Positions 3,025 to 47,583 of a DNA stretch of 59,113 bases are shown here, piece after piece. How positions within the stretch are numbered: the stretch's first letter is position 1; the number at the start of each line of letters is the position of its first letter. This DNA is from an uncultured Lentisphaeria bacterium (lineage in GTDB: Bacteria > Fidelibacterota > UBA8477 > JABMPR01), in assembly GCA_964469505.1 (NCBI GenBank), contig CAYXZO010000005.1:1-59113 (forward strand), written 5' to 3'. The position numbers were made by a program, and so were the translations under genes. The notes under the pieces were generated by a model. The model was not told where the DNA came from. It made no database searches and saw only the letters and a list, made by a program, of their open reading frames with translations.

Positions 3025-4947
3025 TCAGGCCGGCTCTTTCCAATCACCGTTGAGCTTGATAATTTCCACCAATCTTTCCAGCGCCTGGGACTCGGGAATG
3101 TGACGGGCTACTATTTCGTGGCCTTTGTATAGGGTTATTAATCCCGGTCCGGCACCGACATATCCGTAATCCGCATCCGCCATTTCCCCGGGACCGTTAA
3201 CAATGCAGCCCATCACGGCAATTTTCAACCCCTTGAGATGTCCTAAACGGCTTTTCACTAGGGCCGTGACTTTTTCCAGGTCGAAAAGGGTGCGACCGCA
3301 GGAGGGGCAGGCGATGAACTCAGTGGTGGTGATCCGTACCCGTGCCGCTTGGAGAATCTGATATGTCAGGCGGCGCAAATAATGCGGCTGGGCTTGGGGA
3401 GCTTCCAGCCATATTCCATCGCCGAAACCTTCCAGCAATAAACCACCGGTTTGAGCCGCGGCGGCCAGGGTTAGACTGTTTTCGTCTAAATCAGCATATC
3501 TTAATTTGAACACTACCGGATAATGATTTTGGGTCTCCACTAGTTTCATTACAGCCCGTCGCAGCTCGTGATACGCGGCGGGGGAGGTTGCTTCCAGTAA
3601 GAGTATCGCCCCGGAAAAATTATTTAATTTTGAAATAACCTCGGTAGTTAAGCCGTCAGCAGTGCACTGCAGGAGAAAAGGCTGGGAGGTGGGAGTTGGT
3701 GGTAATTCTTCGGTAGTGATAATCCTTAGGGCTTGTGGAATGTCGGTAGTATTGGTTCTGTACAGTCCCCATAGCTCGACTGGCCAATCAGACGGAATGT
3801 CGTCTACCAAAGAAATATCCAGAAATTCAACCGCTTGTTCTTCTTTTTGCCAATTGCCCTGTGGGGTTTTTGAGTATCCCAAAGCAGACCAATTGGAGAT
3901 TACGGTATTTTTTCCGCTGAGGAAAACCCGAACCGGTTGAGAGCCTCCTAATGGTCCCACCGCTTTGGTGGGCCGGCGTTGGTAATGATAGGGATCTTTT
4001 AAAACAGATACTTTTTCTGATTCGATCGCTTGGGATTCGAAAGCCTCGACGACAGCCAGCAGCTGACGGGCTACCGGTACTTCGGCCAGGGGGTTTTCTG
4101 TGAGCGATACCCGAATGGTATCGCCTAAGCCGTCGGCCAGCAGAGCTCCGATGCCCACCGCTGATTTTACCCGCCCCTCCAGACCCGACCCGGCTTCGGT
4201 TACACCTAAGTGGAGAGGGTAGCAGGCCGACTTTTCAAGCATTCGCGCCGCCAACAAACGATAGGCGGCTACCATAACCACCGGATTACTGGCTTTTAAG
4301 CTGATAACCAGGTTGTGAAAGCCTTCTGTTCGACAAATCTCGATGAACTCCCAGGCCGATTCCACCATCCCTTCGGGGGTATCTCCGTACCGGTTCATTA
4401 TTCTTTCGGCCAAACTGCCGTGATTGACTCCTATGCGTAGCGCGGTGCCATACTCACGGCAAGTCTCCAGCAAGGGTCTCAGTTTGGCGTGAATGCGTTC
4501 CAGTTCCGCGGCTTCCTCAGCAGGGGAGTAATCGCCTTTGGTTACATGTTTACCCCCCACATAATTCCCGGGATTGATACGTACTTTGGCTACTATGCGA
4601 GCGGCTATCTCAGCCGCTTTAGGGGTGTAATGTATGTCGGCGATCAACGGCACCTGACATCCTTGACGTCGAACTTCCTTTTGGATTTCAGCCAAAGCTT
4701 CCGCGGCTTTCAGATTGGGAGCCGTGATACGGACGTAATCACATCCTGCCCGTGCCAGAGCCACTACCTGCTCTGCTGTGGCCTGGATGTCCAGGGTCGG
4801 GGTAGTAGTCATAGATTGGATGCGAATGGGGTAAGCGGCTCCTAACGGTATTCCTCCAATATCCACGGTGCGAGTGGGGAGGCGCTGCCGTTGATTATAA
4901 TTTACACAGTAAGGAGGGTAATTTGGGGTAACACTGTCCGTCTGCAT
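3025..4947 (-). CDS. ispG: (E)-4-hydroxy-3-methylbut-2-enyl-diphosphate synthase, long form
   Basis: IRIQSMTTT, PLIADIHY, RINPGN, RIGVNHGSL, YPLHLGVTEAG, GDTIRVSLT, CPSCGRT and MGCIVNGPGE [4Fe-4S] motifs; central insertion gives 640 aa. Confidence 0.96.
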   Translation of the reverse strand: MQTDSVTPNYPPYCVNYNQRQRLPTRTVDIGGIPLGAAYPIRIQSMTTTPTLDIQATAEQVVALARAGCDYVRITAPNLKAAEALAEIQKEVRRQGCQVPLIADIHYTPKAAEIAARIVAKVRINPGNYVGGKHVTKGDYSPAEEAAELERIHAKLRPLLETCREYGTALRIGVNHGSLAERIMNRYGDTPEGMVESAWEFIEICRTEGFHNLVISLKASNPVVMVAAYRLLAARMLEKSACYPLHLGVTEAGSGLEGRVKSAVGIGALLADGLGDTIRVSLTENPLAEVPVARQLLAVVEAFESQAIESEKVSVLKDPYHYQRRPTKAVGPLGGSQPVRVFLSGKNTVISNWSALGYSKTPQGNWQKEEQAVEFLDISLVDDIPSDWPVELWGLYRTNTTDIPQALRIITTEELPPTPTSQPFLLQCTADGLTTEVISKLNNFSGAILLLEATSPAAYHELRRAVMKLVETQNHYPVVFKLRYADLDENSLTLAAAAQTGGLLLEGFGDGIWLEAPQAQPHYLRRLTYQILQAARVRITTTEFIACPSCGRTLFDLEKVTALVKSRLGHLKGLKIAVMGCIVNGPGEMADADYGYVGAGPGLITLYKGHEIVARHIPESQALERLVEIIKLNGDWKEPA

Positions 4948-5042: not shown

Positions 5043-6374
5043 ATGCAAAAACCGTTAAGTGATCTCCATCGTCGAACATTAGCCACTCGACGTAAAAAAG
5101 TTCTCCGGTCCCTGGAAGGTGGGGTAGCCATTTTAAAAGGTGCACCACCACCCATTCGCTCCCATGACACTGAATACGCGTATCGGCAAGATTCTGATTT
5201 CTTGTATCTAACGGGATATACCGCACCGGGTGCTGCATGTATTCTCAATCCCAATAGCAGCAAACCCTTCACCTTGTTTGTGATGCCGAAAGACCCCGAG
5301 AAAGAAGTCTGGACCGGCCGACGTCTTAGTTTCGAAGAAACCAAAGCGCTCTTTGACGCGGATGAAGTCTTGGATATCGCGGTATTTGAAGAAGCAGCTT
5401 ACCAGGCTATGAAGGGGGCCAGGCGGGTATTTATTCCCTTTAATCACGATCAGGCCTTTCGGCATACCATGGTGGATATGCTGCACCGGGTTCAGCAAGA
5501 ATTACACCGGGTGGGGGAACCTCCCCAAGGTTTGGATCCCCTAGGAGCAATTGTCCACGAAATACGGCTTTTTAAAGACGAATTCGAACTGGAATGTATG
5601 CGTAAAGCAGCCAGGATCTCGGCAGAAGCCCACACTCTGGCTATGGAAGCTGCCCGACCGGGTATGTATGAATATGAATTGGAAGCCCTGATTGACTATC
5701 ATTTCCGGCGTTCAGGAGCTACAGGACCTTCGTACCTCACCATTGTAGCGGCTGGAGCCAATGCCACTGTCTTACACTATGTCCATAATCGGGACCGCCT
5801 GCAATCGGGACAGTTGGTGTTGATAGATGCTGGGGCTGAAGTGGAGGGTTATGCCGCCGACATCACTCGTACTTTTCCTGTGGATACAAAATTCGGCAGT
5901 TCGGCCCGGGCACTCTATGAGGTGGTATTGCGAGCCCAGAAAGAGGTCCTGGAGGCAGCCCGTCCGGGGGTAACCTTTGAGGAACTCCATGAGCTGGATG
6001 TGCGTTTGCTGTGCGAAGGGCTGATAGAACTGGGGCTGCTTGAAGAAAAGCTGGAAACAGCCATTGAATCAGGTAGTTATAAGAAATATTTCATGCACCG
6101 CACCGGCCATTGGTTGGGCTTGGATGTACACGATGTGGGGAATTATCGCTGCGATGGCCAATCGCGTAAACTGCAACCCGGTATGGTTTTCACTGTCGAA
6201 CCAGGACTTTACATCAATGAGGAGGCTGCAGTTCCCGACGAATTCAGGGGATTGGGAATCAGAATCGAAGATGATGTTCATATCACAGATAATGGAGCGG
6301 AGATTTTAACTCTGGGTACTCCTAAAGAAATCAAGGAAATCGAACAGCTGCGGGAGAAAGGATTCTCTGTATGA
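5043..6374 (+). CDS. pepP: Xaa-Pro aminopeptidase (M24B)
   Basis: YRQDSDFLYLTG, VLIDAGAE, ADITRTFP, HRTGHWLGLDVHD, TVEPGLY, GIRIEDD. Confidence 0.93.
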   Translation: MQKPLSDLHRRTLATRRKKVLRSLEGGVAILKGAPPPIRSHDTEYAYRQDSDFLYLTGYTAPGAACILNPNSSKPFTLFVMPKDPEKEVWTGRRLSFEETKALFDADEVLDIAVFEEAAYQAMKGARRVFIPFNHDQAFRHTMVDMLHRVQQELHRVGEPPQGLDPLGAIVHEIRLFKDEFELECMRKAARISAEAHTLAMEAARPGMYEYELEALIDYHFRRSGATGPSYLTIVAAGANATVLHYVHNRDRLQSGQLVLIDAGAEVEGYAADITRTFPVDTKFGSSARALYEVVLRAQKEVLEAARPGVTFEELHELDVRLLCEGLIELGLLEEKLETAIESGSYKKYFMHRTGHWLGLDVHDVGNYRCDGQSRKLQPGMVFTVEPGLYINEEAAVPDEFRGLGIRIEDDVHITDNGAEILTLGTPKEIKEIEQLREKGFSV

Positions 6375-7486
6375 GATACTCCTTTAAACACCTACTGTTT
6401 TTGTTGTTATTCATGATTCCCGGTTTTTATGGTTGTCGTTCCCAACCTCAACCGGGAGCCGATGAAATAATTCTGCTACTGGCCGCCAGCAACAACGGTG
6501 AAATAGATCCCTGCGGGTGAAAGTTTCATCCACTTGGCGGTCTCGCCAGGAAGACAACTCTTTTAAAGCAATACCAGAAAGAAGCTCCTACTTATTTTGT
6601 AGATGCAGGGGATGTCTTTTTCGCCCGTCCCCATTTACCATCTGCTAATCTTGAGTTTGAGATAAAAAAAGCCCGGCGCATTTTGGAAGCCTATAATATC
6701 ATGGGGTGCCGGGTTATGAACGTGGGCGTTAACGATTTAGCGGCCGGGAAAGATTTTATCCTGGAACTCCGGCGTGAAGCCAAATTTCCCTTCATTTCAG
6801 CGAATATTATTGATAAACAGAAACGGCAAGCCCTGTTTCCCCCTTATGAGATCATAGAAACGCCGTTAATGAAAATCGGATTCGTGGGGGTAACGGTTGG
6901 TGGGGGAGGTTTCCCGGATTTCTCCTTTGCCGATCCCATTACTACGGTTAAAAAATATGTGGCCCAGATCCGCCCCGAAGTAGATGTGGTGGTCATCCTG
7001 GCCAATGTCAACGACCGGCTCGAGCAGAGGTTGGCTAATATTGAGGGAGTAGATTTCATAGTTCGGTCCCGCACTCCCCGTTTATCCTCTACTCCGATGG
7101 TAATTAATCATGTGAATGTATTGCGATTAGGGAATCGTGGAAAATATGCGGGAATAGTGCATCTCCGTGAGCATCATCAGGGGCGATATTACCGGGACAT
7201 TTCCAGTAAACGGAACCGGTTGAAATTCATCCAGCGGCGACTAGCACGCCTGAAAAAGGAAATTCCCGCTGAAAAAACGCTAGAAGAATACTACCAGGAC
7301 AATCCGACCCGCTTGCGTCTGGTAAAGAACCTGAAGGGTGAACGGGACAAACTATTGAAGCAGCTTGGAGAAAAGGCTAATACTTTTTGGTTTGAGACGG
7401 TAGGATTGGACAAAAAGATCGCCGATGATCCGCAGATCGACAAACTGCTGAACGACGTTCGTCAACCTAAGTCCAAAACTGAGTAA
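6371..7486 (+). CDS. UshA-like (calcineurin-like fold) selenoprotein, putative lipoprotein; Sec at codon 50 (TGA 6518-6520); 371 aa. ORF track gives only 6683..7486
   Basis: ATG 6371 overlaps the pepP stop (ATGA). Frame is open MRYSFKHLLFLLLFMIPGFYGC...ASNNGEIDPCG-TGA-KFHPLGGLARKTTLL...VDAGDVF... and continues in frame into the 6683 ORF. Hairpin with GUCU loop starts 12 nt after the UGA. Confidence 0.85.
6533..6550 (+). promoter_or_regulatory. Bacterial SECIS-like apical stem-loop
   Basis: CUUGGCG-GUCU-CGCCAGG: 7-bp stem (one G-U), G-first loop 20 nt downstream of the in-frame UGA; resembles the GGUCU apical loop of E. coli fdhF SECIS. Confidence 0.7.
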
Positions 7487-7541: not shown

Positions 7542-7614
7542 GCGAGAGTAGCTCAGTTGGTAGAGCACCACGTTGCCAACGTGGATGTCGCGGGTTCGAG
7601 CCCCGTCTCTCGCT
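7542..7614 (+). tRNA. tRNA-Gly (GCC)
   Basis: GCGAGAG/CTCTCGC acceptor stem, D arm GCTCAGTTGGTAGAGC, anticodon arm CCACG-TTGCCAA-CGTGG, T loop TTCGAGC; CCA not encoded. Confidence 0.97.
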
Positions 7615-7638
7615 CGGTAACCAAGAGTCCCTCCGAAA

Positions 7639-28802: not shown

Positions 28803-28832
28803 AACCGAATGCATCTTCTCATTCGGTTTTTT
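28803..28832 (+). terminator. Intrinsic terminator-like hairpin immediately before the porV RBS
   Basis: AACCGAATG-CATCTTCT-CATTCGGTT (perfect 9 bp) then TTTT; RBS AAGGAG follows at about 28838. Confidence 0.65.
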
Positions 28833-28847
28833 ATTGAAGGAGTACAT

Positions 28848-30146
28848 ATGAGCCTTAAAAAACTTTGCTTGTTAATACTGGTTTTGATGGGTACTTCCCT
28901 GGTGCGAGCCCAGGGGACTGCTAGCGCTATATTTTTACTGATTTCTCCCGGCGCCCGAGCGGGTGGAATGGGTGAAGCTCAAGTAGCCGTGGCTAACGAT
29001 TCCTATGCCAGCTATTGGAATCCTGCCGGTTTGGCGTTTCAAAAAGGAGTTGAGATTTCAGGGATGCACGTTAATTGGCTCCCGGGGCTGGTCAATGATA
29101 TGTACTATGACTTCCTGGCCATACGAGTCCCCGCACCTAGTTATTACGGTGTAGTTGGGGGCCACATCATTTATTTGGATGCTGGAAAACAAACATGGAC
29201 CGATGATCAGGGAAATGAATTAGGAACCTTCAGTACTTATTTTACAGCGGCGGCTCTGAGCTATGCGACTATGTTAAGTGATAACTCATCAATTGGATTC
29301 AATTTCAAGGTGGTCTATCAGCACTTAGCAGATAGAGGTGTGACCGTAGGTTCCGAAAACACCAATCCAATTGCCACCAGCCTTGGCGTGGATATTGGTT
29401 ACCTTAAGCGGCACTGGCTGAGTGACCGATTGGATTTCGGAGTCTTACTTTCCAACGTCGGTCCTAAAGTCACTTTTAATGACAAAGCTCAGGCAGATCC
29501 TATGCCCACCAACCTAAAGGTGGGATGGAACTGGCGGGTGATTAAAGGGCAATACAATACACTGAACCTGGTCTATGATGTGAACAAACTATTAGTAGCC
29601 AGCTATCCCGATATGGATTGGGATGGTGATGGATTCGTAGGCGGCTATGACCAGCATGGCAATAAATACATTGTCAATAACGAGGTTTTACAAGGTGATT
29701 ATAACGCCAAGGGGCAAAGAGAAACAGCCCATACCGATCCATGGTATCTGGCTTTGGTTACTTCCTGGTTGGACGACTGGTACCTGGGTGGGGATCGGGA
29801 TCTGGATAACGACAAGAAAATCGGGGGTTACAATGCCGATACGGTAGCTGTAGCTGGCGGCAAATACAATTCATTGGGGCAATTGGAGGTCGGTAACGCT
29901 AAGCAGAGAAGTTTCAGCGCTGAATTACGTTCACTGGTTCATAACATTGGTCTCGAATACTGGTATAATCAAATGTTTGCTATCCGAGGGGGATTCTATT
30001 ACGACTATGAAGGTAAAATCATTGCTCCGACGCTGGGAATCGGCTTGCGTTACGGCAACTACGGCTTTGACTTCGGCTATATAGTGGAGAAGCAGGATCA
30101 TCCCCTGAACAACACTATGCGCTTTTCGCTGCTCATCAAATTTTAG
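28848..30146 (+). CDS. porV: Type IX secretion outer-membrane barrel PorV family, with EF-hand-like insertion
   Basis: ATG after AAGGAG; AIFLLISPGARAGGMGEAQVAVANDSYASYWNPAGLA, YVNWLPGLVNDMYY-like region, NVGPKVTF, PMPTNLKVG, GLEYWYNQMFAIRGG, HPLNNTMRFSLLIKF with terminal Phe. Confidence 0.85.
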   Translation: MSLKKLCLLILVLMGTSLVRAQGTASAIFLLISPGARAGGMGEAQVAVANDSYASYWNPAGLAFQKGVEISGMHVNWLPGLVNDMYYDFLAIRVPAPSYYGVVGGHIIYLDAGKQTWTDDQGNELGTFSTYFTAAALSYATMLSDNSSIGFNFKVVYQHLADRGVTVGSENTNPIATSLGVDIGYLKRHWLSDRLDFGVLLSNVGPKVTFNDKAQADPMPTNLKVGWNWRVIKGQYNTLNLVYDVNKLLVASYPDMDWDGDGFVGGYDQHGNKYIVNNEVLQGDYNAKGQRETAHTDPWYLALVTSWLDDWYLGGDRDLDNDKKIGGYNADTVAVAGGKYNSLGQLEVGNAKQRSFSAELRSLVHNIGLEYWYNQMFAIRGGFYYDYEGKIIAPTLGIGLRYGNYGFDFGYIVEKQDHPLNNTMRFSLLIKF

Positions 30147-44397: not shown

Positions 44398-46620
44398 GTG
44401 GCTAAAGACATTTTCGGCAACCACAAAGTAAATACCGCCATCATCATCGTATTGGCTTTTATGTTTGTCTCAGTCATCTATTTCCCCGATCGAATTTGGA
44501 GACATGAGCGGGAGCTTCGGGATATTGCCCGTTTCAGGATGGAGGCCATCAATCAAGGGGAAAAACTGTTCTATATCTTGACCGAGGAATACACCACTAG
44601 GCCAGATATCCTGTTCCATGTAGTAAACGCTTCCCGCGATAGTGCCCTGGAGAGACTCGGCGATTCCAATGCAACATTCCCAGAGACTCTGCGGTACGTC
44701 TTTCCAGGTAAACAGCTTACCATTAAATACACTCCTGAGTACCGTCAGAAATATGTCGAAGAACACGTAGCCTTATTCAAGAAACTAAAACCCAATCATT
44801 ATTTCCCACCAGAACAGGCCAAAGCCTTCATCGAAACAGTGAAGGTGTACTTCGATCGGGGCAATTTCGTAGGCGAACAATCCGTGCGGCTTGGGAAAGA
44901 CAGTCTGAGATTTACTGTCCCCGACAAGTATGACATCCTTTATCAGAACGGCAAATTTAGGATGTTTAACGTACTCACCGGTAGTGCTACTGAAGATCCT
45001 GGGTTCGCTAATCCATTGGTTAATGCGGTCCTGGATTCCCTGGAACGCAATCCGGATTTAAGTGGAGAGGTCGTATTTACCGGATTGTACCATGAGCCGA
45101 TAACCTTTTCATATACTGTTCCCGACAATTTCTCGCAGCTACTGGAACGCTCTAAAACCCAGCTTAAAAAATTCTTTAAAATCGATCCTCTGGACTCTCT
45201 GGCATACGGTGACACTCTTTACAGCATAGCTCTGGAGAAGTTTTTCACTTTCGACTCCATTCCGGAGCAATTCGAGATTACTTACCGGGATACCACCGGG
45301 GATACTGTGATCGTGAATGTCCCGGTTGATATGGAAGGGATGCAGGACGGTCTTGATAAACGGCGTAACACTCTTTATAAAGCACTCTCCGGTGGCTATC
45401 GCGAGCCCAATCCCATTATCGCTCAGAAAATCATCGATGCCGTCAAGGACTCTTTGGCCAGCGATTCGGTGTTTATCGGCACTCATAAGATTACCCTAGA
45501 CTTGTCTGAAATTCCCTTCAAAATCAGAATTGACCGTACCATTCCGCTGAACCAAATCCAGATCAATAAGGATATGTACACCCGTCTGGAACCGTGGAAG
45601 ATTGGAGTAAATCTGGATTCGGTAGCTGTGGAAGCCGTGGAGTATGTGGCTGATACATTGATGAAGAGCAGGGATTTCAAAGATTGGCAAATCTATGCTG
45701 CTGAAGGGGATTCCCTTAATTTGTTCATCCCCGAAGACTTCCTGAGAATGTACGATGACATGAATCTGCGTTTGTATAAGGCCCTAACCGGTGAATACAC
45801 CAACATTCACGACTATGCATACAATGTGATTCGTAAAGTTGAAGCTTTAGCACAGCAGGACTCCGGTTCTTATTTCGGTGAACATGTGTTAGATATTCCC
45901 GCTGATACGATCGTGGCGCGGGTTGGCTCCGACTATCCGGAAATATATGACTCTACCTTCGTGGTTTATAAAGATACGGTGGTCCAACTTCCCGATAGTA
46001 GTTTTTACGGTGTTTGGTTCCGGCTGCAGAGATATGCCGTACCGGTAGAACAGCCAGACACTCTGCCCTTCGTAAAAGCTGTTGACGGCCAGTTGTATTA
46101 CAATTTCCATCAAGCTGACTCCACCCAGGATTTCATGGTGTTTGAGTTGCGGGATAAACGACACGAAAAGGCCTTCTGGGGGGACAATCGTTATCTGGTG
46201 AGCTTCAACAACGACAGCACTCTGGATGCGGTTTTCCTCTTGATCAGTGACACCACCGGAGCTGATTCCGCCTTGCAAGCTAGTTGGAAACCCTTCACCG
46301 TCGTTTCACCTGAATTCGTGGTGGGGCCGGAAGAAAAGAGTCTGATTATGGCCAAAGACTCTTTCTACGCCTGGGTTGACACAGTTGTAGCTTTAAAGTA
46401 CCGTAAAATTCAGATTAAAAAGCCGTACAAGTTCGCTAATGAACTCAAATACTGTCCTGTGACCGGTTTACCCTTTAGAATTACTGTTAGGTACATGGTC
46501 AACCTGCGGATTGAATCGCCCATCGAGGAGAAAGTCACTTTCAGACGCTATCTGTTCTTCACGGAAGTCGATACCAACCACGGCTATATCCAGGACGGTG
46601 AGCCTAGCTGGTCCAAGTGA
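44398..46620 (+). CDS. Large membrane-anchored hypothetical protein with diverged internal repeats
   Basis: 740 aa, single N-terminal TM, recurring LY(K/N)(A/V)L(T/S)G motifs, C-terminal CPVTGLPF...HGYIQDGEPSW. Confidence 0.75.
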   Translation: MAKDIFGNHKVNTAIIIVLAFMFVSVIYFPDRIWRHERELRDIARFRMEAINQGEKLFYILTEEYTTRPDILFHVVNASRDSALERLGDSNATFPETLRYVFPGKQLTIKYTPEYRQKYVEEHVALFKKLKPNHYFPPEQAKAFIETVKVYFDRGNFVGEQSVRLGKDSLRFTVPDKYDILYQNGKFRMFNVLTGSATEDPGFANPLVNAVLDSLERNPDLSGEVVFTGLYHEPITFSYTVPDNFSQLLERSKTQLKKFFKIDPLDSLAYGDTLYSIALEKFFTFDSIPEQFEITYRDTTGDTVIVNVPVDMEGMQDGLDKRRNTLYKALSGGYREPNPIIAQKIIDAVKDSLASDSVFIGTHKITLDLSEIPFKIRIDRTIPLNQIQINKDMYTRLEPWKIGVNLDSVAVEAVEYVADTLMKSRDFKDWQIYAAEGDSLNLFIPEDFLRMYDDMNLRLYKALTGEYTNIHDYAYNVIRKVEALAQQDSGSYFGEHVLDIPADTIVARVGSDYPEIYDSTFVVYKDTVVQLPDSSFYGVWFRLQRYAVPVEQPDTLPFVKAVDGQLYYNFHQADSTQDFMVFELRDKRHEKAFWGDNRYLVSFNNDSTLDAVFLLISDTTGADSALQASWKPFTVVSPEFVVGPEEKSLIMAKDSFYAWVDTVVALKYRKIQIKKPYKFANELKYCPVTGLPFRITVRYMVNLRIESPIEEKVTFRRYLFFTEVDTNHGYIQDGEPSWSK

Positions 46621-46641
46621 GGACCGGCCCGACGGACAATC

Positions 46642-47583
46642 ATGCTGGGAATTGCCGTCGACAACCAAGCATTGCACTATGCCCAGTTAGTGGACACCGG
46701 CGGGATAACTTCCATTGAAAGTGTTGGTTCGCTCGCACTGACAATTCCCACGGAAGCCTTTCTCACCGCTCCGCTACCGGCTTCATTCACCCATACCTTG
46801 GTCCAGCTTCGGGAAAAACTGGAGTTTCCCGATCGGCGGGTAATCTGCGTACTCCCCATGAGATGGGTGCCCCATTGTTTTCAACGAATGGATAAAGAAT
46901 TACCCGAATCCGATTGGCAGAAATTTTTGGACTGGCAAGGCGGCACCATCATGGAGGTGAATCCCCGTGAATATCGGTTGATACACCAGGAACTTGAGTT
47001 GGACAACGCCACCGACGTAAGGTATTTCATAAGTGTGGCATTGCCCGTAAAACTGCACATCAAACTGAAAAATGCTTTCGAGCAAGCCGATTGGAATCTG
47101 GAAAAACTCATTCTGGAATCGGAGGCGCTTGGTAACTATTTGTTACTGGATTCCATCGAGGCTGAAAGTCAGGATCTCACGGGGCTCTTCAGAACCCGTA
47201 ACCCCCAGGAAGGTCAATTTCTTCTTTTTAAAAACCAAGAATGGGTGGGGGAGACCTACTTGTTTCGTGACGCCGAAGAAACCTGGCGCACTGAGGTTGT
47301 CTGGACGGCCGTGAACGACACCTTCGCCATAGTCGATGAAGTGCGTGATGCCCTTAATGGCTTACCATCCACCCAGGACTCCCCATTTTTAAACTGGTAT
47401 TACCTGTGTCAAGCGGACGATATGCCTGAGTGGCGTGAAAATCTGGAACATTTGGGGGTGGGCCGACCGCTCTTCATGGAAGATTTATTTACGCTCAGAG
47501 ATATGCCGGAGGAAAAGCTCTCTACCTTGGCCGGCGCCATGGGAGCCTTAATTCCTTTATTGCCGTTAAATCATGCGGATTAA
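46642..47583 (+). CDS. PilM-like (actin-fold) protein, divergent
   Basis: MLGIAVDNQALHYAQL and FISVALP...AFEQADWNLEKLILESEAL resemble PilM segments; followed by an INLL-starting gene. Confidence 0.5.
   Translation: MLGIAVDNQALHYAQLVDTGGITSIESVGSLALTIPTEAFLTAPLPASFTHTLVQLREKLEFPDRRVICVLPMRWVPHCFQRMDKELPESDWQKFLDWQGGTIMEVNPREYRLIHQELELDNATDVRYFISVALPVKLHIKLKNAFEQADWNLEKLILESEALGNYLLLDSIEAESQDLTGLFRTRNPQEGQFLLFKNQEWVGETYLFRDAEETWRTEVVWTAVNDTFAIVDEVRDALNGLPSTQDSPFLNWYYLCQADDMPEWRENLEHLGVGRPLFMEDLFTLRDMPEEKLSTLAGAMGALIPLLPLNHAD

What the first reader, a model, noticed from the sequence alone, without database searches (positions are those of the whole stretch)
6521..6553. SECIS hairpin overlaid on the conserved GGLAR protein motif
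The stem-loop CUUGGCG-GUCU-CGCCAGG begins 12 nt after the UGA and encodes L-G-G-L-A-R, the GGxAR motif conserved in 5'-nucleotidase/UshA folds. Codon choice (GGC GGT CTC GCC) seems selected so a protein motif doubles as the SelB-binding RNA element with a G-led GUCU loop.
Basis: partly seen in the sequence, partly recalled or inferred. Interest (0 to 1): 0.62.

Follow-up and report, generated by a model that had tools for sequence, protein, structure and literature searches.

The report
Selenocysteine signal hairpin inside UshA-like gene
A small RNA hairpin 12 bases after an in-frame UGA in a 5'-nucleotidase-like lipoprotein gene is a typical bacterial selenocysteine-insertion signal that also encodes the conserved Leu-Gly-Gly-Leu-Ala-Arg motif; it is a clear but ordinary case in a known selenoprotein family.

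Summary
CUUGGCG-GUCU-CGCCAGG lies at 6533-6550, starts 12 nt after the in-frame UGA (6518-6520) and encodes exactly L-G-G-L-A-R in the gene 6371-7486.

The hairpin meets all four criteria of the published bacterial SECIS model. It places G23 and U24, and the pentamer GGUCU, at the same distance from the UGA as the E. coli fdhF SECIS.

Comparison with homologues is the decisive evidence:
- The octamer GGCGGTCT is present in 55 of 64 distinct UGA-containing homologues carrying at least six phylum-level labels, against 1 of 19 relatives without UGA.
- The third codon positions of G56, G57 and A59 are nearly frozen (0.35-0.48 bits), while ten other conserved four-fold residues of the same gene vary freely (1.6-2.0 bits).
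- Two stem pairs covary, partly through paired synonymous Leu and Arg changes.
- Relatives without UGA that encode the identical LGGLAR use other codons.

One nuance: the motif's codons are partly self-complementary, so half of the Cys forms also form some hairpin. The loop and stem sequence is what marks the Sec forms.

The family (UshA-like, CxU; NCBIfam NF041198) has been a known selenoprotein family since at least 2008. This is a divergent Marinimicrobia-type member. SelB binding and Sec insertion are inferred, not shown.

The parts
6371..7486 (+). Selenoprotein gene: UshA-like / 5'-nucleotidase N-domain-like lipoprotein, 371 codons with one in-frame UGA; stop codon at 7484-7486
   Evidence: The translation is continuous except for TGA at codon 50. 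NCBIfam NF041198 UshA_like_PCGU scores 212.7 bits, E 8e-63, below its cut-off of 275. 5'-nucleotidase and CpdB structures match residues 48-233. Homologues were called as N-terminally truncated ORFs, as expected for Sec genes.
6371..6436 (+). Signal peptide with a lipobox-like F-Y-G-C (Cys22); the ATG overlaps the TGA stop of the upstream pepP gene (ATGA at 6371-6374)
   Evidence: Read directly from the sequence and translation. No signal-peptide predictor was run, so this is an inference.
6518..6520 (+). UGA selenocysteine codon in the motif P-C-G-U
   Evidence: It aligns with TGA in 64 distinct homologous loci and with TGY (Cys) in 17. TGA is otherwise the commonest stop codon in the window, ending 20 of 43 long ORFs.
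6521..6532 (+). 12-nt spacer (codons K-F-H-P) between the UGA and the hairpin
   Evidence: The spacing of 5 codons between U and the first Gly is fixed in 60 of 62 Sec homologues. The sequence here is variable, at 1-2 bits per position.
6533..6539 (+). 5' arm CUUGGCG (codons Leu55, Gly56 and the first base of Gly57)
6540..6543 (+). Apical loop GUCU. Counted from the U of UGA, G23 is 6540 and U24 is 6541. The family-wide conserved loop motif is G22-G23-U24-C25-U26 (6539-6543)
   Evidence: Column 23 is invariant G and column 24 is T in at least 90% of 60 sequences. E. coli fdhF has the same pentamer at the same positions. A review cites G23 and U24 as the constrained loop bases and names U17 and G23 as SelB binding sites (PMC8659212).
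6544..6550 (+). 3' arm CGCCAGG (last base of Leu58, Ala59, Arg60)
   Evidence: The GCC codon for Ala is used in 53 of 56 Sec homologues that have Ala.

Best explanation
The hairpin at 6533-6550 is the bacterial SECIS element of a UshA-like selenoprotein gene.

Proposed mechanism: when the ribosome reaches UGA 6518-6520, the hairpin sits 12 nt downstream, near the mRNA entrance. Its apical loop presents G23 and U24 to the C-terminal domain of SelB, which delivers Sec-tRNA(Sec). UGA is then read as selenocysteine in the motif P-C-G-U instead of ending translation.

The same 18 nt encode L-G-G-L-A-R, a motif inherited from the 5'-nucleotidase fold.
- Gly (GGN) is complementary to Ala/Pro (NCC), and Leu (CUN) pairs with Arg/Lys (AGR, CGR, AAG). 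The motif is therefore already hairpin-prone.
- In Sec-containing members the synonymous positions are fixed (GGC GGU CUN GCC) to give the stem and the GGUCU loop.
- In return, the RNA restricts the residue before Arg/Lys to Ala or Pro.

Shown here: the structure, its conservation and covariation, its restriction to UGA-containing homologues, and its match to the bSECIS model and to E. coli fdhF. Inferred: SelB binding, Sec insertion, and the presence of selABCD in this genome.
For: 1. Anatomy: a 7-bp stem and 4-nt loop beginning G-U, with 19 nt between the UGA and the loop. MFE is -9.8 kcal/mol for the 18-mer and -14.8 for 53 nt. All four constraints of the published bSECIS model are met (PMC13188914).

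2. The E. coli fdhF SECIS sequence was verified at 100% identity under the fdhF annotation, with matches in 5,419 of 5,426 E. coli genomes. It has U17 U18 G19 and G22 G23 U24 C25 U26 at exactly the same distances from the UGA as the window. G23 and U24 are the constrained loop bases (PMC8659212).

3. The TGA is conserved in 64 distinct homologous loci labelled Neomarinimicrobiota/Fidelibacterota, Lentisphaeria, Thermodesulfobacteriota/Deltaproteobacteria, Myxococcales, Pseudomonadota, Polarisedimenticolaceae and Anaerolineae. It aligns with Cys in 17 others.

4. The octamer GGCGGTCT occurs in 55 of 64 Sec loci against 1 of 19 non-Sec loci (Fisher p = 1e-10). Codon counts are GGC 57/62, GGT 57/62 and GCC 52/62 in Sec forms, and mixed in Cys forms.

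5. Internal control within the same 62 sequences:
- Third-position entropy is 0.35 bits at A59, 0.48 at G56 and 0.48 at G57.
- It is 1.37 bits at the invariant G49.
- It is 1.59-1.98 bits at ten other conserved Gly, Ala, Pro and Ser codons.

6. Covariation:
- Pair 18-31 is U-A in 41 sequences and G-C in 16, through a synonymous Leu third base paired with a synonymous Arg first base.
- Pair 16-33 is C-G in 44, U-A in 8 and A-U in 3.
- 88.8% of cells are paired, against 29-59% when the partners are slid.
- 0 of 500 shuffles reach the observed score.
- RNAalifold independently recovers the stem.

7. GGLPR variants keep the hairpin through a 1-nt register shift, for example UUGGC-GGUCU-GCCAA in L019 and L026.

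8. Relatives without UGA that encode the same motif use other codons: TTA GGT GGC CTA GCC AGG, TTG GGA GGC TTG GCC AGA and CTG GGC GGA CTG GCC CGC.

9. UGA is not reassigned in this genome: 20 of 43 long ORFs end in TGA.
Against: - There is no experimental evidence of Sec insertion or SelB binding.
- The 59-kb window holds no tRNA-Sec. None of the ten ORFs of suitable size that were scanned is selA, selB or selD. The Sec machinery of this organism is therefore assumed.
- Single-sequence folding significance is modest in longer contexts (z = -1.0 to -2.1).
- The U17 bulge that defines the E. coli element is absent. Here U17 forms a U.G pair and is C in 10 of 60 homologues.
- Half of the Cys forms (7 of 14) also form a stem of at least 5 bp in this region, and one (L057) forms 7 bp. 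A hairpin alone is therefore not diagnostic.
- Nine of the 64 Sec homologues, mostly Thermodesulfobacteriota, lack the octamer and have variant loops such as GGUGU, GGGGU and GGGAU.
- No Rfam family matches the region.
- The Sec forms may be largely monophyletic, so counts of sequences overstate the number of independent events. The internal synonymous-site control addresses this.
Confidence: 0.9

Rival explanations
1. The hairpin is only a by-product of the amino-acid motif. GGN (Gly) is complementary to GCC/CCN (Ala/Pro), and CUN (Leu) pairs with AGR/CGR (Arg), so L-G-G-L-A-R tends to fold without any RNA function.
For: Seven of 14 Cys homologues have a stem of at least 5 bp in the same region. 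L057 (LGGFPR, CTTGGAGGATTTCCAAGA) has 7 bp. 5.7% of random synonymous recodings give at least 6 bp in register.
Against: Only about 1.2% of recodings match the observed stability, yet 58 of 64 Sec homologues have at least 5 bp. The exact octamer GGCGGTCT is in 55 of 64 Sec forms against 1 of 19 non-Sec forms. Synonymous sites are frozen only inside the hairpin. There is compensatory covariation. The Ala-to-Pro variants keep the RNA structure, not the protein sequence.
Confidence: 0.04
2. The TGA is a true stop, through a pseudogene, a split gene or an assembly error, or it is read as Trp or Gly under an alternative genetic code. The downstream hairpin would then be unrelated to recoding.
For: Gene callers split the gene. 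P0001 is the 267-aa downstream ORF. One database homologue carries W at this position (P0019).
Against: The TGA is conserved at the same codon in 64 distinct loci and aligns with Cys in others. The reading frame is conserved on both sides. TGA ends 20 of 43 long ORFs in the window, including pepP immediately upstream. L086 does not translate to P0019 under code 11, so its W comes from gene calling under a different genetic code. The family is curated as a selenoprotein (NF041198; PMC2398784).
Confidence: 0.03
3. The conserved hairpin has another RNA-level role in Sec-containing members, such as ribosome pausing for co-translational export or lipoprotein targeting, or mRNA stability. It would not bind SelB.
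For: The protein has a signal peptide. Structured mRNA can slow elongation. No binding data exist.
Against: Conservation is tied strictly to the presence of UGA, not to the signal peptide, which Cys forms also have. The loop sequence and its spacing from the UGA match the SelB-binding determinants of E. coli fdhF. The spacing to the UGA is fixed in 60 of 62 Sec homologues.
Confidence: 0.03

Closest known systems
Bacterial SECIS element of E. coli fdhF (formate dehydrogenase H)
   Same: - It lies in the coding region directly after the UGA.
- It is a small apical hairpin.
- U17 U18 G19 and G22 G23 U24 C25 U26 are identical and at identical distances from the UGA.
- The loop presents G23 and U24.
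- Both elements overlap codons of the mature protein.
   Different: - No bulged U17. Here U17 is in a U.G wobble pair and is replaced by C-G in 10 of 60 homologues.
- The stem starts 12 rather than 11 nt after the UGA and has 7 uninterrupted bp.
- No conserved lower stem is detected.
- The host protein is unrelated.
UshA-like (seleno)protein family, CxU motif (COG0737; NCBIfam NF041198 UshA_like_PCGU)
   Same: - It has the P-C-G-U motif.
- It is homologous to the N-terminal metallophosphoesterase domain of 5'-nucleotidases.
- The family is listed as a selenoprotein family in marine metagenomes and reviews (PMC2398784, PMC9312934, PMC13188914).
   Different: - The window protein scores 212.7 bits, below the 275-bit cut-off, and covers only positions 7-376 of the 519-position profile.
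- It is a short form of 371 aa.
- It belongs to a syntenic Marinimicrobia-type orthologue group and is about 40% identical to its nearest relatives.
Generic bSECIS consensus model (bSECISearch, as summarised in PMC13188914)
   Same: All four constraints are met: loop size and stem length, G followed by G or U at the start of the loop, a 16-37 nt spacing, and MFE of -7.5 kcal/mol or lower.
   Different: The model is permissive. This family shows much stronger sequence conservation (GGCGGUCU) than the model requires.

Membership tests
Bacterial SECIS (bSECIS consensus model) | Located in the coding region immediately downstream of an in-frame UGA that aligns with Cys in homologues | tested here: met
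   UGA at 6518-6520 and hairpin at 6533-6550. TGA aligns with TGY in 17 homologous loci.
Bacterial SECIS (bSECIS consensus model) | Apical loop of 3-9 nt and upper stem of 4-16 bp | tested here: met
   4-nt loop and 7-bp stem. The family consensus is 5-7 bp with a 4-6 nt loop.
Bacterial SECIS (bSECIS consensus model) | G in one of the first two loop positions, usually followed by G or U | tested here: met
   The loop is G-U-C-U. Column 23 is invariant G and column 24 is U in at least 90% of 60 homologues.
Bacterial SECIS (bSECIS consensus model) | 16-37 nt between the UGA and the apical loop | tested here: met
   19 nt (6521-6539).
Bacterial SECIS (bSECIS consensus model) | MFE of -7.5 kcal/mol or lower | tested here: met
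   -9.8 kcal/mol for the 18-mer and -14.8 for 53 nt.
Bacterial SECIS (bSECIS consensus model) | Binds SelB and directs Sec insertion at the UGA | not testable with these tools
   This needs reporter, 75Se-labelling or binding assays.
Bacterial SECIS (bSECIS consensus model) | The genome encodes the Sec machinery (selA, selB, selC tRNA-Sec, selD) | tested here: inconclusive
   No tRNA-Sec in the 59-kb window. Ten ORFs of suitable size were scanned and none is a sel gene. The rest of the genome was not available.
E. coli fdhF-type SECIS | G23 and U24 in the apical loop, numbered from the U of UGA | tested here: met
   G at 6540 and U at 6541 are positions 23 and 24. The pentamer GGUCU at positions 22-26 is identical to fdhF.
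E. coli fdhF-type SECIS | Bulged U17 on the 5' side of the upper stem | tested here: not met
   U17 is predicted to pair with G32 as a wobble pair. Column 17 is C, paired with G, in 10 of 60 homologues.
UshA-like (seleno)protein NF041198 | HMM score at or above the curated cut-off of 275 bits | tested here: not met
   212.7 bits, E 8.3e-63, matching profile positions 7-376 of 519. It is the best-scoring family by far, so the protein is a divergent or short relative rather than an equivalog.
UshA-like (seleno)protein NF041198 | P-C-G-U (CxU) motif with Sec near the N-terminus of a 5'-nucleotidase-like domain | tested here: met
   D-P-C-G-U at residues 46-50. 5'-nucleotidase structures align from residue 48 or 49 onward.
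Rfam RNA families | A match to any curated covariance model in the region | tested here: not met
   Only two tRNAs reach the gathering threshold in the window. Nothing relevant appears at E up to 10 in 6400-6700.

The most novel reading that the evidence does not exclude
The Sec form of this family may owe its existence to exaptation. The ancestral 5'-nucleotidase motif G-G-x-A-R sits seven codons after the active-site Cys and is intrinsically self-complementary at codon level (GGN pairs with NCC, CUN with AGR). A near-SECIS hairpin with GG at positions 22-23 was therefore already in place. Only synonymous tuning to GGC-GGU-CUN-GCC was needed for Cys-to-Sec conversion.

Once established, the RNA element froze the protein motif. 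The residue before Arg/Lys is Ala or Pro in 64 of 64 Sec forms, but D, S, T, Q, P, G or A in Cys forms.

The same octamer occurs under at least six phylum-level labels and matches the E. coli fdhF loop base for base. This would indicate either a very widely shared SelB recognition code or horizontal spread of the gene together with its SECIS.
Probability: 0.45. Interest if true: 0.45.

Novelty: new member of a known kind. Interest (0 to 1): 0.3.

Why it matters
This is a clear, quantifiable natural example of dual coding. Eighteen nucleotides specify both a conserved protein motif and an RNA signal, and each layer measurably constrains the other: synonymous sites are frozen and one residue is restricted to Ala or Pro.

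In practice the finding:
- corrects the annotation of a gene that callers split at the UGA or translate with W;
- gives a sharp sequence signature (TGA-N18-GGTCT within a GGC/GCC stem) for recognising Sec members of the UshA-like family in Marinimicrobia and other uncultured marine bacteria;
- suggests the element may be readable by E. coli SelB, which would ease heterologous expression.

It does not reveal a new mechanism.

Tried and rejected
- Rfam at gathering threshold and at E up to 10 gave no SECIS-like family hit, only chance sRNA fragments.
- Pfam gave no hit for the protein.
- The search for related loci with the broad alignment A1 failed because no conserved stretch was available. 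The narrower alignment A2 worked.
No model was made, so the position of Sec relative to the former dimetal site was not examined.
- A conserved lower stem that includes the UGA appears in the window's MFE fold. RNAalifold does not support it across 60 homologues, so it was rejected as part of the element.
- The window was scanned for other in-frame TGAs with long open frames on both sides. Of 68 candidates, only 6518 combines long frames with a hairpin bearing a GGUC loop. TGA 46618 and TGA 27647 appear to be ordinary stops, each followed in frame by the next gene.
- A scan of the flanks of all 86 loci for further TGA-plus-GGU-loop hairpins gave ten weak, unconvincing hits.
- A search for sel genes among ten window ORFs of suitable size found none.
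- A literature search for Marinimicrobia selenoproteins gave nothing specific.

Full report
**1. Observation.**
The window carries a gene on the + strand from ATG 6371 to the stop at 7484-7486. It is interrupted only by TGA at 6518-6520.

The product reads ...NNGEIDPCG-U-KFHPLGGLARK.... Twelve nucleotides after the TGA lies CTTGGCG-GTCT-CGCCAGG (6533-6550). This is a 7-bp stem, including one U.G pair, with a 4-nt loop. Its 18 nt are exactly the codons CTT GGC GGT CTC GCC AGG, which encode L-G-G-L-A-R.

Folding results:
- The 18-mer folds at -9.8 kcal/mol (z = -4.0).
- The stretch 6518-6570 folds at -14.8 kcal/mol (z = -2.1).
- In 101 nt the hairpin persists but z is only -1.0.
- The proven E. 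coli fdhF SECIS gives z = -1.3 in the same test. Single-sequence statistics are therefore not decisive for this class of element.

Its coordinates include the spacer.

**2. What the gene is.**
The best family match is NCBIfam NF041198, 'UshA-like (seleno)protein', model name UshA_like_PCGU. It scores 212.7 bits (E 8e-63), under the curated cut-off of 275, and covers profile positions 7-376 of 519. Pfam finds nothing.

Solved 5'-nucleotidases and CpdB align from residue 48-57 to about residue 233. The motif GGLAR aligns with GGVAR in Thermus 5'-nucleotidase 2z1a and with GGWAN in 3ivd. The canonical GNHE motif is GVND here, and the D-x-H region is replaced by P-C-G-U. A classical dimetal phosphoesterase chemistry is therefore doubtful.

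The N-terminus looks like a lipoprotein signal (…FYGC). Some relatives are fused to multihaem cytochrome domains.

The UshA-like CxU family has been listed as a selenoprotein family since at least the 2008 Global Ocean Sampling analysis, and appears in later reviews (PMC2398784, PMC9312934, PMC13188914).

Synteny (ispG, pepP, this gene, an HTH gene, pcm) is shared with eleven Neomarinimicrobiota-type loci at about 55% PepP identity. The window therefore comes from a divergent Marinimicrobia/Fidelibacterota-like bacterium.

TGA is a normal stop in this genome. It ends 20 of 43 long ORFs, including pepP, whose TGA overlaps this gene's ATG.

**3. Comparative test.**
Eighty homologous loci were fetched from one-genome-per-species contigs. 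Six more came from proteins found by homology search.

- The Sec position is TGA in 64 distinct sequences. These are labelled Neomarinimicrobiota/Fidelibacterota, Lentisphaeria, Thermodesulfobacteriota/Deltaproteobacteria, Myxococcales, Pseudomonadota, Polarisedimenticolaceae and Anaerolineae.
- It is TGY (Cys) in 17 loci.
- Five relatives have neither Sec nor Cys.
- One database protein with W at this site (P0019) has TGA at that codon in its contig and does not translate to the database sequence under code 11.

In the Sec set the distance from U to the Gly-Gly pair is fixed at five codons in 60 of 62 sequences. The codons there are:

| Residue | Sec-set codon usage |
|---|---|
| G56 | GGC 57/62 |
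| G57 | GGT 57/62 |
| L58 | CTT, CTG or CTC, 55/62 |
| A59 | GCC 52/62 |

In the Cys set the same residues use GGC, GGA or GGT; GGG, GGA, GGC or GGT; and assorted codons at the other two positions.

The octamer GGCGGTCT is present in 55 of 64 Sec sequences against 1 of 19 non-Sec sequences (Fisher p = 1e-10).

Relatives that encode the very same motif without UGA use other codons:
- TTA GGT GGC CTA GCC AGG
- TTG GGA GGC TTG GCC AGA
- TTG GGA GGT TTG GCC AGA
- CTG GGC GGA CTG GCC CGC

**4. Control for relatedness.**
A codon alignment of the 62 Sec genes was used to measure third-position entropy at every conserved four-fold-degenerate residue.

| Site | Third-position entropy (bits) |
|---|---|
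| A59 | 0.35 |
| G56 | 0.48 |
| G57 | 0.48 |
| G49 (invariant, just before U) | 1.37 |
| Ten other conserved Gly/Ala/Pro/Ser codons | 1.59-1.98 |

The three lowest values all lie in the hairpin. Synonymous sites are saturated across the gene, and the freezing is local to the hairpin.

**5. Covariation.**
The test used an ungapped 51-column alignment of 60 distinct Sec sequences and the window's hairpin as the structure.

- 88.8% of cells are paired, against 29-59% when the 3' partners are slid by 1-3 columns.
- 0 of 500 shuffles reach the observed pairing or covariation score.
- Pair 18-31 switches between U-A (41 sequences) and G-C (16). That is Leu CTT with Arg AGG against Leu CTG with Arg CGG, a doubly synonymous compensatory change.
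- Pair 16-33 is C-G in 44, U-A in 8 and A-U in 3.
- Pair 17-32 is U.G in 40, C-G in 10 and U-A in 8.
- RNAalifold independently predicts the five outer pairs and no lower stem.
- Seven GGLPR variants keep an equivalent hairpin through a one-nucleotide register shift, for example UUGGC-GGUCU-GCCAA in L019 and L026. The RNA is preserved where the protein changes.

**6. Match to known SECIS rules.**
The bSECIS consensus model as summarised in PMC13188914 has four constraints:
- a 3-9 nt loop with a 4-16 bp stem;
- G followed by G or U at the start of the loop;
- 16-37 nt between the UGA and the loop;
- MFE of -7.5 kcal/mol or lower.

The window has 4 nt and 7 bp, G-U, 19 nt and -9.8 kcal/mol. All four are met.

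The E. coli fdhF SECIS sequence I recalled was verified at 100% identity under the fdhF annotation, with matches in 5,419 of 5,426 E. coli genomes. Numbered from the U of UGA, both fdhF and the window have U17 U18 G19 and G22 G23 U24 C25 U26. A review names U17, G23 and U24 as the constrained bases, and U17 and G23 as the SelB contacts (PMC8659212).

Differences from fdhF:
- U17 is predicted to be in a U.G pair rather than bulged, and is C in 10 of 60 homologues.
- The stem begins 12 rather than 11 nt after the UGA.

**7. Nuance.**
The motif is intrinsically hairpin-prone. 5.7% of random synonymous recodings give at least 6 bp in register, and about 1.2% match the observed stability. Seven of 14 Cys forms show a stem of at least 5 bp nearby, and L057 shows 7 bp. 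The hairpin alone is therefore a weak discriminator. The fixed GGC-GGUCU-GCC sequence is the strong one.

The constraint also acts on the protein. The residue before Arg/Lys is Ala or Pro in all Sec forms, but D, S, T, Q, P, G or A in Cys forms. This supports an exaptation scenario, which I rate as plausible but unproven.

**8. Mechanism and confidence.**
The most likely mechanism is as follows. SelB carrying Sec-tRNA(Sec) binds the GGUCU loop as the ribosome reaches the UGA, and Sec is inserted into P-C-G-U. Confidence is 0.9.

Shown: the structure, its position, its conservation, its covariation, its restriction to UGA-containing genes, and its agreement with the model and with fdhF.

Inferred: SelB binding, Sec insertion and the presence of selABCD. 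No tRNA-Sec or sel gene was found in this 59-kb window, and no other selenoprotein candidate was found.

The rivals are each rated at 0.04 or below, for the reasons given with each rival:
- a pure by-product of the codons;
- a true stop or an alternative genetic code;
- another RNA role.

**9. Novelty and score.**
The family and the SECIS class are both known. This is a divergent member with a textbook-quality element.

The dual-coding detail was not found described in the papers I could search. It comprises a cross-phylum invariant octamer, doubly synonymous covariation, and the Ala/Pro restriction. It refines known biology rather than adding a new kind. Interest is 0.3.

Noticed in passing
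window 6371-6374: The ATG of the selenoprotein gene overlaps the TGA stop of the upstream Xaa-Pro aminopeptidase gene (ATGA). This suggests translational coupling. The same TGA triplet type acts as a stop here and as Sec 147 nt downstream.
   Followed up: partly
window 6371-6436: The N-terminus MRYSFKHLLFLLLFMIPGFYGC looks like a lipoprotein signal peptide with a lipobox Cys22. The selenoprotein is probably exported and lipid-anchored. No predictor was run.
   Followed up: no
window 6509-6517 (codons P47-C48-G49) and homologues: Codons just upstream of the UGA also show reduced synonymous variation in Sec homologues: Pro47 is CCC in 48 of 60 (0.85 bits) and Gly49 is GGC or GGG in 57 of 62. This may be a 5' context effect on UGA recoding, or an extension of the structure.
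   Followed up: no
window 6710-6745 and 7050-7070 (protein residues ~115-125 and ~228-235): The canonical metallophosphoesterase motifs are degenerate. GNHE(F/D) aligns with GVNDL. The Gly-His region that P0023 retains as GGHSQS appears to be IVRSRT in the window, judged by eye from the sequences. D-x-H is replaced by P-C-G-U. The protein may not be a classical dimetal phosphoesterase. SoxB is the second-best NCBIfam hit.
   Followed up: partly
P0020, P0022, P0023, P0037 (homologues; L081 for P0022): Several relatives, both Cys and probably Sec forms, are fused to multihaem cytochrome c domains (PF13435, PF22113, PF14522). This hints at a redox or electron-transfer role for the CxC / CxU site.
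   Followed up: no
L086 187-1335 (protein P0019): A public protein record carries W at the Sec position (…EPCGWKKKPLGGLARK…). The contig has TGA there and does not translate to the record under code 11. The gene was evidently called under a different genetic code (TGA read as Trp), so this is an annotation artefact for a selenoprotein.
   Followed up: yes
L057 ~3093-3110; L081 ~1216-1233; L084 ~1423-1440: Some Cys forms retain SECIS-like remnants. L057 has CTTGGAGGATTTCCAAGA, which forms 7 bp. L081 has CTGGGCGGACTGGCCCGC, with 5 bp and the loop GGACUG. L084 has GGCGGTCT but no 3' arm. These could be fossils of Sec-to-Cys conversion or by-products of the motif.
   Followed up: partly
L055, L056, L060, L073: Four relatives have lost both Cys and Sec (…YPKKMRRGSLGGIARR…, …KPYKIRLDSLGGLARR…) but keep the LGG(L/I)AR motif, with varied codons. 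They make useful natural controls, and they show that the CxU/CxC site is dispensable in some lineages. L073 is labelled Marinimicrobia.
   Followed up: partly
window 7542-7615: A tRNA-Gly(GCC) gene lies 55 nt downstream of the selenoprotein gene's stop codon.
   Followed up: no
window 44398-47583: Two long ORFs (740 aa and 313 aa) lie in the same frame, separated by TGA 46618 plus 21 nt. There is no SECIS-like hairpin after this TGA. They are most likely adjacent genes, not a selenoprotein.
   Followed up: partly
window 28809-30146: A PorV/PorQ-family type IX secretion outer-membrane protein (NF033709, 260 bits). From general knowledge, type IX secretion is typical of the FCB group, which fits the Marinimicrobia-like synteny.
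   Followed up: no
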